A stretch of 25,860 nt of DNA, taken from NCBI RefSeq assembly GCF_006345805.1, contig NW_021836003.1, positions 1-25,860 of the forward strand, written 5' to 3'. Positions within the stretch are counted from its first letter, which is position 1. Each line of letters opens with the position of its first letter. A program made the position numbers and the translations under genes. Shown here one piece after another: positions 5,547-19,242 of this stretch. Under the pieces are notes generated by a model. The model made no database searches, had not been told where the DNA came from, and saw only the letters and a program-made list of their open reading frames with translations. Origin of the DNA: Octopus sinensis. Its lineage: Eukaryota.

Positions 5547-5571
5547 CATATACAAATATATACTTGAATAT

Positions 5572-5969
5572 AGGAGGAGTGGCTGTGTGGTAAGTAGCTT
5601 GCTTATCAACCACATTGTTCCGGGTTCAGTCCCACTGCGTGACATCTTGGGCAAGTGTCTTCTACTATAGCCTCGGGCCGACCAATGCCTTGTGTGTGGA
5701 TTTGGTAGACGGAAACTGAAAGAAGCCTGTCGTATATATGTATGTATATATATGTATGTGTATGTGTGTGTGTTTGTCCCCCTACCATTGCTTGACAACC
5801 GATGCTGGTGTGTTTACGTCCCCGTCACTTAGCGGTTCGGCAAAAGAGACCGATAGAATAAGTACTGGGCTTACCAAAGAATAAGTCCCGGGGTCGATTT
5901 GTTCGACTAAAAAGGCGGTGCTCCAGCATGGCCGCAGTCAAATGACTGAAACAAGTAAAAGAGTAAAGA

Positions 5970-5972
<3 letters not shown>
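5572..5972 (+). mobile_element. SINE family A, full length
   Basis: Head-CORE-microsatellite-tail, ends AAAAGAGTAAAGAGTA. Confidence 0.85.
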
Positions 5973-6290: not shown

Positions 6291-6644
6291 ATGAGAGGCA
6301 AAAGAAAAACTGTAAAACTGCTCAAATTGGATTCAGCCTGATCCAATGTCCTGCGTAGTGTTCTGCTGGATTACAGAGAGATAAGTAAGTTCTGTCGTTT
6401 AGCAACTTACTCTTTTACTTGTTTCAGTCATTTGACTGCGGCCATGCTGGAGCACCGCCGCCTCTTTAGTCGAGCAAATCGCCCCCCCCCCCAGGTGCTT
6501 TGTAAACTTAGCACGTATTCTATCGGTTTTTATTTTGCCGAACCGCTAAGTTACGGGACGTAAACACGCCAACATCAGTTGTCAAGCGGTGTTGGGGAGA
6601 CAAATACAGACACACAAACATATACACACATACATATAAATAAT

Positions 6645-6715
<71 letters not shown>

Positions 6716-6807
6716 TTAGAGACAAAACCACTATTATGCAAATCAAACAAGAAAGACTTAATCCAATACATAAAAAATTTTATATAAATTAAATAAAATT
6801 AAGTTAT

Positions 6808-6852
6808 CCACTACAATGTTTCTTGTCACTTCTAAGGACATTCATCAGGTGG
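6808..6852 (-). ncRNA. Minimal type-I hammerhead ribozyme motif (inverted copy)
   Basis: CCAC-CTGATGA-A-TGTC-loop-GACA-A-GAAA-CATTG-TA-GTGG on the minus strand; stem III one A shorter than in the plus copy. Confidence 0.7.
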
Positions 6853-6957
6853 TTTTCAGACCTTCTATTCAATTTTAAATTATGAAGTACTTACTTCATA
6901 ATTTAAAATTATGAAGTACTTACTTCATAATTTAAAATTGAATAGAAGGTCTGAAAA

Positions 6958-7003
6958 CCACCTGATGAATGTCCTTAGAAGTGACAAGAAACAATTGTAG
7001 TGG
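6958..7003 (+). ncRNA. Minimal type-I hammerhead ribozyme motif
   Basis: Stem I CCAC/GTGG; core CTGATGA (6962-6968); stem II TGTC/GACA; GAAA (6988-6991); palindromic stem III CAATTG; GUA triplet ending at 6999. Confidence 0.8.
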
Positions 7004-7187
7004 ATAACTTAATTTTATTTAATTTATATAAAAATTTTATGTATTGGATTAAGTCTTTCTTTGTTTGATTTGCATAATAGTGATTTTGTCTCGAATTAAT
7101 ATTATATAATATTTTACTATAAAATTGGATTTAATCCTAAATCTGATTTTTTTCCCTGTAATTTTGGATTTATTCCCTAATATTTAT

Positions 7188-7222
<35 letters not shown>

Positions 7223-7262
7223 TATATGTATATATATATAACAATATATATATATATATATA

Positions 7263-7320
<58 letters not shown>

Positions 7321-7625
7321 CGACGGGCTTCTTTCAGTTTCCGTCTACCAAATCCACTCACAAGGCTTTGGTCGGCCCGAGGCTATAGCAGAAGACACTT
7401 GCCCAAGGTGCCACGCAGTGGGACTGAACCCGGAACCTTGCGGTTGGTAAACAAGCTACTTACCACACAGCCACTCCTACGCCTATTTAACTTGCTGACT
7501 TAAGTACATTTCAAAGGAAGGGTCTGAATCGGAGGGTATTTCGGGGAAGGAGACATAAACGAATTCACATACACAATTTTCAGCGCGCCAGCGTTCTAAT
7601 AATTCATTTATTACTGTATAACAGA

Positions 7626-8405: not shown

Positions 8406-8420
8406 GTGCGTATGTCTCTC

Positions 8421-8813
8421 TTTACTCTTTTACTCTTTTATTTGTTTCAGTCATTTGACTGCGGCCATGCTGGAGCACCGCCTTTTAGTCGAGCAAATCG
8501 ACCCCGGGACTTATTCTTTGTAAGCCCAGTACTTATTCTATCGGTCTCTTTTGCCGAACCGCTAAGTAACGGGGACGCAAACACGCCAGCATCGGTTGTC
8601 AAGCAATGCTAGGGGGACAAACACACACACAAATATATATATACATATATACGACAGGCTTCTTTCAGTTTCCATCTACCAAATCCACTCACAAGGCTTG
8701 GTTGGCCCGAGGCTATAGTAGAAGACACTTTCCCAAGATGCCACGCAGTGGAATTGAACCCGGAACCATGTGGTTGGTCAGCAAGCTACTTACCACACAG
8801 CCACTCCTGCGCC
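8421..8813 (-). mobile_element. SINE family A, full length (intron 1)
   Basis: Homology to other copies. Confidence 0.85.
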
Positions 8814-9004
8814 TATATACATTTTTTTTGTTTATGGGCCCTTTTCAAGGCTCAGGTTCATGGGCCCGGTTTCCCGGTTTCTGTGGCGCATGTTTTTATT
8901 TTTGTCTTTTTTTAGTTTTTTTTTTTTTGCAAGGTGAAGAACATTAAGAGTATAAGGGGAATATATTTACTTTCATATTTCACCCACGGTTCGGTTTTGT
9001 GGTT

Positions 9005-10748: not shown

Positions 10749-11700
10749 GGCGGCGAGCTGGCAGAAACGTTAGCACGCCGGGCGAAATGCTTAGCGGTAT
10801 TTCGTCTGCGTTACGTTGTGAGTTCAAATTCCGCCGAGGTCGACTTTGCCTTTCATCCTTTCGGGGTCGATAAATTAAGTACCAGTTACGCATTGGGGTC
10901 GATGTAATCGACTTAATACCTATGTCTGTCCTTGTTTGTCCCCTCTGTGTTTAGCCCCTTGTGGGTAATAAAGAAATAGAAATAGGTATTTCGTCTGCCG
11001 CTACGTTCTGAGTTCAACTTCCACCGAGGTCGACTTTGCCTTTCATCCTTTCGGGGTCGATTAAATAAGTACCAGTTACGCACTGGGGTCGATATAATCG
11101 ACTTAATCCGTTTGTCTGTCCCTGTTTGTCCTCTCTGGTTTTAGCCCCTTCTGAGTAGTAAAGAAATTGGTATATCGTCTTCTGTCTTAACGTTCTGAGT
11201 TGAAATTCCGCCGAGGTCGACTTTGCCTTTCATCCTTTCGGGGTCGATTAAATAAGTACCAGTTACGCACTGGGGTCGATATAATCGACTTAATCCGTTT
11301 GTCTGTCCTTGTTTGTAACTCTCTGGGTTTAACCCCTTCTGGGTAGTAAAGAAATTGGTATTTCGTCTGCCGTTACGTTCCGAGTTCAAATTCCGCCGAG
11401 GTCGACTTTGCCTTTCATCCTTTCGGGGTCGATAGATTAAGTACCAGTTACGCAATGGGGTCGATGTGATCGACTTAATCCGTTTGTCTGTCCTTGTTTG
11501 TCCCCTCTATGTTTAGCCCCTTTTGGGTAATAAAGAAATAAGAAACGCTAGTATACCGGGCAAAATGCTTAGCGGTAATTCGTCTGCCACTACGTTCTGA
11601 GTTCAAATTCCGCCGAGGTCGACTTTGCCTTTCATCCTTTCAGGGTCGATTAAATAAGTACCAGTTACGCGCTTGGGTCGATGTAATCGACTTAATCCCT
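10749..11700 (+). mobile_element. Tandem array of five units of tRNA-related SINE family D
   Basis: About 185-190-bp units, each with GAGTTCAAATTCC (B box-like) and GCCTTTCATCCTTTCGGGGTCGAT..AAGTACCAG. Confidence 0.85.
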
Positions 11701-12619: not shown

Positions 12620-12866
12620 AGAGTTAAGGCTTGACACACTTCTGACTTAATACAAAGCCGCAATGCATGACTGTATTAGATTAAATGGCAACAAGATTTT
12701 GCAGCCTACATTTCCTGTGTATCAACATTAACACTCTCAGAAGTTTATGGCTTAAACGTTCAACATTTAATTTCAAGTTCTAAGTTCCGTAAGCAGTTTA
12801 TGTTACATGTTCTGTTATAGTTTTGAATTTTGATTTTCATGGCAGTAATTTTACTTCTATGTTCAG

Positions 12867-13993
12867 GCATGTTTCAAGAAGACGAAGACAGATACGATGA
12901 AGAAGAAAGTAAAACCTTCAAATTGCAAGACCCTCCCAAGAGAAAAGCAAAAACTTTTACCAAACCACTCGACATGAAAGATGAGTTTGATTGCTCCCCT
13001 CAAAAATCGTCACAGGACGGTACCTCGTCCAGCCCTTCACGGGCCAAAAGCCAGACGTCCATAACTCAATACATGATACGTACTTCACCTCAACATGGAG
13101 CACGTCTAAGAAGCAAATCCTGTCAATCCCCTTTACCTCATTCCCCTTATACGATACTGGCTCAATCGCCTTGCACTCCGTCGAAATGTGCGAAAAGCAA
13201 CGATGGCGGAAACTTCTTCTTTTCAGATCTGCCTACGGGAGAATTGAACACGGCTGTCTTTTCCCACGACAAAAGAAACAGAAAACGTCCGGTCGATATG
13301 AGTTCCATGAACGACAAGGAAATTGTGGAAAATTTCACAGATCTCAATATGGCGTCACCTCCTCCAATAACCGTGGATAAACTACCGGCCAGAGAAAGGT
13401 GTCGATCATCGCAAGACGACTCAGATTATTACACTATGGCGAACAAATCGTCTGCAGTTACTCCGCCATCACCTCGTTTAGTGAAGAGTGCCTGCGAACG
13501 TAGACAAAAGACTGCAGAATCGCCGGTCTATAAAGACTGCTTCAGGAGGACATCATGCAGATGCTACGAGGAGAATACTTCCGGCGGATATAGCAATCGT
13601 AGCTTCTGCAAGCAGGCGAATATATTAGAAGAGGAGTCGATATTATGTCCAACAGAGAGGAGCGTTTTTCATGGACACGAAAGCTCACAGGAATCTCGTC
13701 AACAAAATATGAGGTTTGATCAAAGGCCATGTCCAACAGCGGTATTTGGTCATTCCCTATCGGGGTTAGTTCCAGTTGATTATATACACGATCCAGAACA
13801 TCCTATCCCTGATGAGTTCCCTTACGAATCCACTTTCGTGCCCTCCTACGACAAGAAGGGAATATACAGAAAGGACGAGATGTACAACAGAATTCAAGCG
13901 TTGAAGGAGGACAGCGACGCTGGTAAAGTCATGTTTAGACGTTGGTCGAATAAAGACGTCACCCGAAATCGATCGTGCGATAACCAACTCTGG
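12867..13993 (+). CDS. Coding exon 3 (GMFQEDEDRY...SCDNQLW)
   Basis: 1127-nt open, non-repetitive frame; acceptor ttcag at 12866 (phase 1), donor TGG|gtaagc (phase 0). Confidence 0.9.
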
Positions 13994-14147
13994 GTAAGCA
14001 AATACTTTGTCTTTCTGGAGTTTTTTGTTTTGTTTTGTTTTGCTTTGTTTTATCGAAATTACGAGAATTTTTTTATGCAACAAAGATTAATGCCCTCTAA
14101 ATAGCATTTGAAATGCGGAGACTATGCAAATGCGCGCAAACCCACCA

Positions 14148-18198: not shown

Positions 18199-18479
18199 GT
18201 ACAGTCGGTTTTCCAACGTAGCATGTATATGTACGTGTGTGTGTCTGTGTGTGTATGTGTGTGTACGTGTGTGTGTGTGACAGACAAACAGACAGACGGA
18301 TAGCAAATACAAAGAAAGGGAGAGAAATTATATACTTGGGTGTCTTTACATACAGATGTATTTGTCTGTTAGTATCACTATGCCTCTTCATATTACGTCT
18401 GCACAGACTTGTCTATATGTATGTGTATGCATATAAATATAATACCTACACTTATATACACACACTCATATATATATAT

Positions 18480-19242
18480 GGCGCAGGAGTGGCTGTGTGG
18501 TAAGTAGCTTGCTAACCAACCACATGGTTCCGGGTTCAGTCCCACTGCGTGGCATCTTGGGCAAGTGTCTTCTGCTAAAGCCCCGGGCCGACCAAAGCCT
18601 TGTGAGTGGATTCGGTAGACGGAAACTGAAAGAAGCCCATCATATATATATATGGCGCAGGAGTGGCTGTGTGGTAAGTAGCTTGCTAACCAACCACATG
18701 GTTCCGGGTTCAGTCCCACTGCGTGGCATCTTGGGCAAGTGTCTTCTGCTAAAGCCCCGGGCCGACCAAAGCCTTGTGAGTGGATTTGGTAGACGGAAAC
18801 TGAAAGAAGCCCATCATATATATATATGGCGCAGGAGTGGCTGTGTGGTAAGTAGCTTGCTAACCAACCACATGGTTCCGGGTTCAGTCCCACTGCGTGG
18901 CATCTTGGGCAAGTGTCTTCTGCTAAAGCCCCGGGCCGACCAAAGCCTTGTGAGTGGATTTGGTAGACGGAAACTGAAATAAGAGTGTCGTATATATGTA
19001 TATATATACATATATATATATGTGTGTGTGTGTGTGTGTTTGTGTTTCTGTGTTTGTCCCCCTAGCATTACTTGACAACCAATGCTGGTGTGTTTACGTC
19101 TCCGTAACTTAGCGGTTCGGCAAAAGAGACCGATAGAATAAGTACTAGGCTTACAAAGAATAAGTCCTGGGGTCGATTTGCTCGACTAAAGGCGGTGTTC
19201 CAGCATGGCCGCAGTCAAATGACTGAAGCAAGTAAAAGAGTA
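18480..19242 (+). mobile_element. SINE family A with triplicated 174-bp head
   Basis: Heads start at 18480, 18654 and 18828; single tail. Confidence 0.9.

What the first reader, a model, noticed from the sequence alone, without database searches (positions are those of the whole stretch)
6711..7190. Two opposed hammerhead ribozymes in a 390-bp fold-back nested inside a SINE
Seen: complete type-I core on + (6958-7003, predicted GUA cleavage after 6999) and a mirror copy on - (6808-6852); the centre is a tandem pair of 29-bp units, each itself a hairpin; the insert sits in the (TA)n of a family A SINE. Established: Penelope-like elements carry minimal hammerheads with palindromic stem III that cleave as dimers, and often have inverted terminal copies. 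Inference: transcription from either strand includes one ribozyme, but the long duplex would sequester it, so cleavage competes with dsRNA formation. The A.A mismatch at the base of stem II is atypical.
Basis: partly seen in the sequence, partly recalled or inferred. Interest (0 to 1): 0.75.

Follow-up and report, generated by a model that had tools for sequence, protein, structure and literature searches.

The report
Spliced Penelope fold-back with twin hammerheads
This hairpin is two back-to-back ends of a Penelope-type jumping gene, each missing exactly the gene's 1.1-kb intron and so likely copied from its spliced RNA; it is probably a dead by-product, but its many sister copies, some starting at the ribozyme's predicted cut site, give genomic clues to how these elements copy themselves.

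Summary
Both hammerhead cores, the 390-bp fold-back, the 29-bp tandem and the SINE (TA)n target are present, though the minus copy lacks one helix-III base. The insert is a head-to-head pair of terminal repeats (pLTRs) plus tail of an RT/GIY-YIG Penelope-like element with Hydra-clade motifs. A near-full-length copy was found (L167). Opposed hammerheads in such inversions are already described.

The genome has 183 exact spliced junctions against 82 intron acceptors. Spliced copies keep only 16-37 nt of exon 1 (49 of 52 measured), and a single origin is rejected (p-AU 7e-19). They are likely reverse transcripts of the spliced sense mRNA's 5' end, which argues against the antisense-template model. 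Also, 15 of 17 true 5' ends at five tested positions lie at or one base before the predicted cut site, a suggestive footprint of in vivo cleavage. The ribozymes at this locus are probably inert inside the duplex. The scan earlier reported a spliced Penelope fold-back in another genome (e1-9506236).

The parts
6407..6640 (-). 3' half of the host SINE (target element)
   Evidence: aligns with intact copies at 5570-5970 and 8420-8880
6641..6712 (.). (TA)n target, left; the exact insertion boundary is hidden in it, no TSD can be read
6697..6904 (-). inverted arm: spliced pLTR copy ending at the family's first fixed 3' end (equivalent of 7112), no tail; left boundary uncertain by about 14 nt of TA
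   Evidence: 17 of 20 inverted arms in other top copies end at 7112
6808..6852 (-). type I hammerhead, helix III palindrome broken by a 1-nt deletion (private mutation or assembly error)
   Evidence: self-duplex -2.3 vs -6.4 kcal/mol for the intact palindrome
6862..6889 (-). exon 1 remnant (28 nt) of the inverted arm; splice junction at 6862/6861
6871..6939 (.). head-to-head junction with a 29-bp duplicated junction unit (antisense-sense-antisense-sense switching)
6918..6948 (+). exon 1 remnant (31 nt), identical to the sequence before the GT donor in intron-bearing copy L036; start near the inferred transcription start
6948..6949 (+). exon-exon junction; a GT-AG intron of median 1114 nt lies here in long copies
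   Evidence: 25 of 26 loci GT..AG
6958..7003 (+). PLE-type type I hammerhead, intact core, palindromic helix III, predicted cut after 6999
6949..7112 (+). exon 2 part of the pLTR (5' UTR of the element), ending at the first fixed 3' end
7113..7190 (+). one-sided tail (~78 nt); in full elements it runs on ~46 nt to the ATG of the RT-EN ORF
7191..7320 (.). (TA)n target, right
7321..7483 (-). 5' head of the host SINE (tRNA-derived look is from recall, not tested)

Best explanation
The insert is a head-to-head pair of terminal-repeat copies of a Hydra-type Penelope-like retrotransposon, both lacking exactly the element's 5'-UTR intron, and was likely made by reverse transcription of the 5' end of its spliced sense mRNA into one cut in a (TA)n tract. 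Shown: the parent element with RT and GIY-YIG-type ORF, the GT-AG intron in long copies, its precise absence here and in many sister copies, two fixed 3' ends (7112, 7190), and 5' ends clustered 16-37 nt before the junction. Inferred steps: (1) the pLTR promoter starts the mRNA about 27-37 nt before the donor and the cap-proximal intron is spliced; (2) the element protein cuts both target strands and primes internally at the two 5'-UTR sites, as shown in vitro for the anole PLE; (3) each cDNA can run only 190-270 nt to the RNA's 5' end; (4) the two cDNA ends join through short AT-rich matches, with slippage giving the 29-bp duplication; (5) ORF-bearing copies keep the intron because they derive from the downstream pLTR of read-through RNA, where it follows a 4-5 kb exon and is poorly spliced. 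The hammerhead is predicted to cut as a dimer in the parent RNA; at this locus it is probably inert.
For: Family of at least 874 arms. Parent L167 has acceptor-hammerhead-tail-ATG-ORF of ~830 codons with one stop and Hydra motifs. 25 of 26 loci with both boundaries read GT..AG. 183 exact spliced junctions against 82 acceptors, controls 0. On contig C1, 64 of 64 listed arms were examined: 12 clearly and 5 likely spliced, 7 intron-retaining, 1 ambiguous, 39 truncated earlier (by eye; script one search gave 14/7/43 with some miscalls). Exon 1 remnant is 16-37 nt in 49 of 52 measured, mode 27; 0 of 64 spliced sites run into the ORF. Spliced copies occur in several subfamilies next to intron-bearing kin, and one clade is rejected (p-AU 7e-19, 109 rows). 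D. virilis has a 5'-UTR intron 46 bp after the start (PMC2377424, passages) ending at helix I (PMC4209133). Internal priming at two sites, cutting of both strands and use of uncut RNA come from PMC11167929 (parts 1-2 of 4).
Against: No RNA start site or spliced transcript was observed directly. In this subfamily both intron ends share AGGT, so a DNA deletion could give the same junction (only AG is shared in the A-type subfamilies). Three spliced copies keep 41-72 nt of exon 1, and L032 has an imprecise junction with ~200 nt upstream. Two-primer joining and single-cDNA snap-back are not separated by these data. The tree rests on 154 columns with weak support, and both arms of one insertion are counted. 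Pfam and PDB gave no RT or GIY-YIG hit for the parent protein; its identity rests on motifs and homologues. The RIKWK motif departs from the clade's RWK, and the unit (5.6-6.1 kb) is about twice the usual Hydra length.
Confidence: 0.8

Rival explanations
1. Same spliced template, but one cDNA primes at 7190, runs to the 5' end, snaps back on itself and makes the inverted arm as second-strand synthesis that stops at 7112.
For: Palindromic, AT-rich junctions and local strand switches in the centre; self-priming is the reading of PMC3846280 (Discussion read), although there on an antisense template.
Against: Fold-back on one cDNA should make the inverted arm begin next to the sense arm's 5' end. 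Many pairs are strongly offset, e.g. L002, L007, L027, L029, whose inverted arms start at 7010-7043 while the sense arm starts at 6907-6927. 7112 is also used as a lone 3' end, so it behaves as a priming site.
Confidence: 0.25
2. An independent non-autonomous family (SINE- or MITE-like, or a retrozyme) that lost the intron once and spreads as a palindrome whose ribozymes act as a cleavage-versus-dsRNA switch.
For: High copy number and 92-97% identity of the top copies; one subfamily is mostly spliced in my sample (26 of 32 identical motifs).
Against: Each copy has its own centre. Single origin is rejected. No tandem units of retrozyme type at this locus. The antisense arm is transcribed first in either direction. 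The minus ribozyme has a broken helix III.
Confidence: 0.06
3. The intron was removed at DNA level by microhomology-mediated deletion, so no spliced RNA is implied.
For: AGGT at both intron ends in G-type subfamilies; one imprecise junction with long upstream sequence (L032).
Against: The same exact junction appears in A-type subfamilies with only AG shared. The element sequence stops 16-37 nt upstream in 49 of 52 cases, whereas a deletion would leave the 2-kb 3' UTR attached.
Confidence: 0.05
4. The palindrome at this locus is a long-read fold-back chimera.
For: No listed short-read contig spans this centre; the 1-nt gap in the left arm could be an assembly error.
Against: The arms differ at several places. 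The tail is one-sided at the family's fixed site. The SINE continues correctly on both sides. Fold-back joints of the family appear in short-read contigs of two other runs.
Confidence: 0.03

Closest known systems
EN+ Penelope-like insertions with inverted 5'-truncated pLTR and one-sided tail (PMC8557442 Fig. 2 legend, passages read; Pen2a_Av in PMC3846280, passages and Discussion read)
   Same: head-to-head arms, palindromic junction, tail on one arm only, (TA)n target, hammerhead in the pLTR
   Different: no ORF between the arms; both arms are precisely spliced; tail ~78 nt instead of 30-40; both 3' ends lie in the 5' UTR, before the ATG
Hydra clade of PLEs, including Hydra-1_Obim (PMC8557442 section 11, supplement parts 2 and search hits)
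   Same: C-terminal EN, DKT, GLYRDD, CxCX5C linker, CxxC..E..N..CxH, (TA)n target, canonical hammerhead often with an unpaired 10.1-11.1
   Different: a different family from Hydra-1_Obim (different hammerhead and protein, compared by eye); 5.6-6.1 kb unit with ~2 kb 3' UTR and a 1.1-kb intron; N-rich insert; no intron noted for the clade in the parts read
PLE hammerheads (PMC4209133, parts 1-2 of 4 read)
   Same: short helix I, palindromic helix III, predicted dimer; dual motifs on opposite strands 100-700 bp apart are described there; intron end next to helix I as in D. virilis
   Different: no G10.1-C11.1; splicing here changes only the flank 9 nt upstream of helix I, not the helix
Anolis Poseidon PAc mechanism (PMC11167929, parts 1-2 of 4 read)
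   Same: two internal priming sites bounding the tail; AT-rich target; uncut RNA used as template
   Different: there no RNA reads began or ended at the cut site and priming sites are not like the target; here ends are TA-rich like the target, and some genomic copies start at the cut site
Metazoan non-LTR retrozymes (PMC7229834, passages; bioRxiv 10.64898/2026.07.22.740005, part 1 of 5)
   Same: non-coding, type I hammerhead, PLE pLTR origin
   Different: not a head-to-tail tandem; no sign of a circular intermediate; derives repeatedly from autonomous masters

Membership tests
EN+ Penelope-like element (derivative) | pLTR belongs to an element with one ORF encoding RT and C-terminal GIY-YIG EN | tested here: met
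   L167: 90% identical pLTR followed by an ~830-codon ORF with one stop; RT and EN motifs shared with five homologues, three tagged PF26215; no direct Pfam or PDB hit
EN+ Penelope-like element (derivative) | inverted 5'-truncated pLTR and one-sided tail | tested here: met
   20 of 29 other top copies have an inverted arm; 17 of 20 end at 7112
EN+ Penelope-like element (derivative) | hammerhead in the pLTR, sense strand | tested here: met
EN+ Penelope-like element (derivative) | intron retained in genomic copies | tested here: not met
   met by long copies (82 acceptors; 25 of 26 GT..AG), not by this copy or the 183 spliced junctions; this is the variant feature
EN+ Penelope-like element (derivative) | target-site duplication | tested here: inconclusive
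   both ends lie in (TA)n
Hydra clade | DKT motif, CxCX5C linker, CxxC and CxH flanking E and N | tested here: met
   SDKT, CTCRDKSKC, CYLCSNE..LN..CRH against the definition
Hydra clade | RWK motif | tested here: inconclusive
   RIKWK in L167 and L169; homologues have RWK or RWR
Hydra clade | (TA)n insertion | tested here: met
Hydra clade | placement in an RT tree with reference PLE clades | not tested
   reference proteins were not available as stored sequences; compared by eye with the supplement
Type I hammerhead, dimer type | core CUGANGA / GAAA / UH | tested here: met
   both copies; 141 of 144 parsed sites have CUGANGA, though sites were picked with a core pattern
Type I hammerhead, dimer type | self-complementary helix III with covariation | tested here: met
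   ACAAUUGU 92, ACGAUCGU 28, ACGAUUGU 13 of 144; copies, not independent events; not met by the minus copy
Type I hammerhead, dimer type | paired 10.1-11.1 (usually G-C) | tested here: not met
   A.A here; Watson-Crick in 50 of 144; PMC3088659 (passages) lists this as the most conserved helix pair and reports a U.U exception
Type I hammerhead, dimer type | self-cleavage | not testable with these tools
   indirect only: 5' ends at 6999-7000
Non-LTR retrozyme | head-to-tail tandem units each with a hammerhead | tested here: not met

The most novel reading that the evidence does not exclude
This family is a genomic record of the Penelope cycle. Hundreds of precisely spliced solo and head-to-head pLTRs show that sense mRNA, primed internally at two 5'-UTR sites, is the template, and that inverted ends form from it. 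Intron retention in full copies is then a matter of position (downstream pLTR in read-through RNA), not of an antisense template. The excess of copies that start at the hammerhead cut site shows that the ribozyme cleaves in vivo despite an unpaired 10.1-11.1.
Probability: 0.5. Interest if true: 0.7.

Novelty: new variant of a known kind. Interest (0 to 1): 0.5.

Why it matters
Two questions about Penelope-like elements are open in print. One is why their genomic copies keep introns: PMC3846280 proposes an antisense template and says experiments are needed, and PMC8557442 calls the significance unknown. The other is whether their hammerheads cut in vivo: PMC4209133 notes no in vivo evidence, and PMC11167929 found no reads at the site. 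This family carries spliced and unspliced copies side by side with countable ends, so both can be tested from genomes plus one RACE and one cleavage assay. The locus itself is probably an inert by-product, and the opposed-hammerhead layout is known.

Tried and rejected
Rfam scans: no hammerhead hit, only below-threshold miRNA-hairpin matches. Pfam and PDB scans of the parent ORF and homologues: nothing relevant. The protein atlas was not available for this protein. Sequencing runs: no RNA holder listed; contigs of four guessed-RNA runs laid on L167:300-2000 covered exon and intron pieces but listed no splice joint, which says nothing either way. An extra 5' G from cap copying was considered; the G can come from the inverted arm in most cases, so it was dropped. 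The apparent pile-up of 5' ends at 7004-7012 is partly an alignment effect of subfamily differences and AT-rich microhomology and was not used. The loose intron census was replaced by the strict one. Two rows mislabelled as intron-bearing were dropped. One global alignment (window against L036 exon 2) failed on a missed anchor and was ignored. Literature: searches found no report of spliced genomic PLE copies or of copies starting at the hammerhead cut site. The 2003-2006 Arkhipova and Evgen'ev papers and the Terminon paper were not read and may bear on this; PMC2377424 says only that the 'majority' of PLEs contain introns. The bioRxiv retrozyme supplement could not be seen.

Full report
Observation. 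The + hammerhead spans 6958-7003 with the predicted cut after 6999. The minus copy at 6808-6852 is one base shorter in helix III, which lowers the predicted self-duplex from -6.4 to -2.3 kcal/mol. The whole region folds into one hairpin at -283 kcal/mol. The flanks are the two halves of one SINE, split in its internal (TA)n. Rfam has no hammerhead hit here.

It is a repeat with Penelope-type ends. A DNA search of the own genome gave 2151 candidates, 40 scored, 92-97% identical. A 27-base pattern has 874 exact matches. Of the 29 other loci fetched, 20 have an inverted arm upstream of the sense arm, each with its own junction. 17 of these 20 end at window 7112, while the sense arm runs ~78 nt further to 7190 (sense arms were selected for covering the query). 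This is the inverted pLTR plus one-sided tail drawn for PLEs (PMC8557442, passages). Opposite-strand hammerhead pairs 100-700 bp apart are already reported (PMC4209133). The 29-bp tandem parses as a duplicated junction unit, and L004 and L006 have similar scars. Short-read contigs of two other runs show fold-back joints of the family, so the layout is not a long-read artefact, although this locus's centre was not itself spanned.

The parent element. Walking upstream led to RT and endonuclease fragments, and a protein search to long frames. L167 reads: inverted pLTR, intron acceptor, hammerhead, tail, ~46 nt, ATG, ~830 codons with one stop, 3' UTR, exon 1, intron, hammerhead, tail. The protein has SDKT, GLYRDD, CxCX5C, YIG and CxxC..E..N..CxH, aligned with five homologues at 33-40% identity. 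These fit the Hydra clade definition and are collinear by eye with Hydra-1_Obim, which is a different family. RIKWK departs from RWK, Pfam and PDB gave no hit, and no reference tree was built. Hammerhead-to-hammerhead units are 5.6 kb (L174) and 6.1 kb (L170). An octopus host is my inference from the recalled SINE, not a tool result.

Both arms are spliced. Long copies have an intron exactly between window 6948 and 6949. Of 26 loci with both boundaries, 25 read GT..AG, median 1114 nt. The genome holds 183 exact matches to the joined junction and 82 to the acceptor, with reversed-pattern controls 0 (counts are arms, and the patterns differ slightly in stringency). Among 152 distinct hammerhead sites in my loci, 64 were spliced, 85 were called intron-type (2 of them wrongly) and 3 were other. 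Of 52 spliced sites measured, 49 keep 16-37 nt of exon 1 (mode 27) and three keep 41-72; 12 could not be measured by the script. None of 64 continues into the ORF, against 16 of 85 intron-type sites, a figure inflated because ORF loci were fetched on purpose. In a census of all 64 pattern matches on contig C1, I read 12 as spliced, 5 as likely spliced (their exon 1 donor was not in my loci), 7 as intron-retaining, 1 as ambiguous and 39 as truncated before the junction (the script gave 14, 7 and 43). On an exon 2 tree the spliced label needs 18 changes, at least 7 forced by strong branches (111 rows). After dropping the two mislabelled rows it needs 15, at least 4 forced, and one spliced clade is rejected at p-AU 7e-19 (109 rows). 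Spliced copies therefore arose repeatedly.

How it likely works. In D. virilis the pLTR promoter starts 46 bp before a 5'-UTR intron (PMC2377424, passages). The anole PLE protein cuts both target strands and primes at two internal sites that bound the tail, using uncut RNA (PMC11167929). Applied here, a spliced mRNA primed at 7112 and 7190 can yield only 190-270 nt of cDNA. Two such cDNAs, one from each target strand, joined at their ends, give this insertion. An antisense template, proposed to explain both intron retention and head-to-head ends (PMC3846280, Discussion), cannot give GT-AG-precise loss. Full copies would keep the intron because they come from the downstream pLTR, where it follows 4-5 kb of ORF and 3' UTR. 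That last step and the two-primer joining are inference; single-cDNA snap-back remains a rival.

The ribozyme. Helix III covaries between subfamilies (ACAAUUGU 92, ACGAUCGU 28, ACGAUUGU 13 of 144 parsed; 120 perfect palindromes), as expected for a dimer. These are copies, and the compensatory change may be one event. Position 10.1-11.1 varies (A.A 59, A-U 29, U-A 21, A.C 19, A.G 9, U.U 5, other 2), and 15 of 26 published Hydra rows are unpaired there. At this locus the antisense arm is always made first and the duplex outweighs the local fold by over 200 kcal/mol, so cleavage is unlikely.

A possible cleavage footprint. Three C1 copies began exactly at the predicted 3' product, so I tested five positions genome-wide. 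True 5' ends: 0 of 1 hit at 6997, 7 of 9 at 6999, 8 of 9 at 7000, 1 of 4 at 7001 and 1 of 4 at 7002; the other hits were point changes in longer copies. An end at 7000 looks like 6999 when an A precedes it by chance. 15 of 17 ends at 6999-7000 compares with 37-41% expected (p 2e-5 to 9e-5). A conservative recount, 12 of 15, gives p 0.0009-0.003. In L234 both arms start exactly at 7000. Caveats: the test was post hoc, one locus was also in the discovery set, base composition was assumed, 6998 was not tested, some ends are blurred by microhomology, and RT pausing at helix III would give similar ends.

Novelty and score. Precisely spliced genomic PLE copies and cut-site starts were not found in nine paper searches, with key older papers unread. 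The scan itself noted a spliced Penelope fold-back in another genome (e1-9506236; I had reached this reading before the look-up) and cut-site starts for a Naiad family in this genome (e1-8669002, seen after my test). These are unchecked notes, not support. Verdict: new variant of a known kind, interest 0.5.

Noticed in passing
L167:1709-1731 (also L059): Four TTAGGG-type telomeric repeats sit right at the intron donor of this near-full-length copy.
   Followed up: no
L167 ORF, alignment A3 columns ~503-590: An ~85-aa asparagine-rich insert after the RT thumb, absent from five homologues; P0001 has its own N-rich insert further on. Like the N-rich inserts of Adineta PLEs (PMC3846280).
   Followed up: no
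L032 / L042 (G000:C13:52457798): An intron-less copy with an imprecise junction (six bases short of the spliced form) and ~200 nt of upstream sequence; may be a DNA deletion or another splice.
   Followed up: partly
L132:4327-9600: Five hammerhead cores of different subfamilies within 5.3 kb, including a spliced fragment and one with a long helix II.
   Followed up: no
L059, L061, L066, L069: Partial tandems of about 1.45-1.5 kb that restart upstream of exon 1 from the middle of the intron.
   Followed up: no
L179, L193, L201, L205, L210: More distant subfamilies with longer helix II and a likely spliced junction whose exon 1 ends in AAT or AAG; their donor side was not fetched.
   Followed up: partly
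L167:8420-8800: A SINE of the same family as the window's host SINE sits inside the intron part between the inverted and sense arms.
   Followed up: no
window 5575-5966 against 6407-6640 and 7300-7478: A second SINE copy lies inverted to the host SINE (93% over 179 nt), so read-through RNA could form a further long duplex.
   Followed up: no
window 12827-14104 (+): A 425-codon stop-free frame of ordinary composition with no Pfam hit, perhaps a host exon.
   Followed up: partly
window 18466-18983 and 10796-11539: Tandem arrays of SINE-like units: 3 x 174 bp at 99% and 4 x 190 bp at 88%.
   Followed up: no
L036:4291-4707 (-): A fragment of another PLE-type endonuclease with a CxxxxCxxC linker (Neptune-like, by the motif in PMC8557442) near a family copy.
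   Followed up: no
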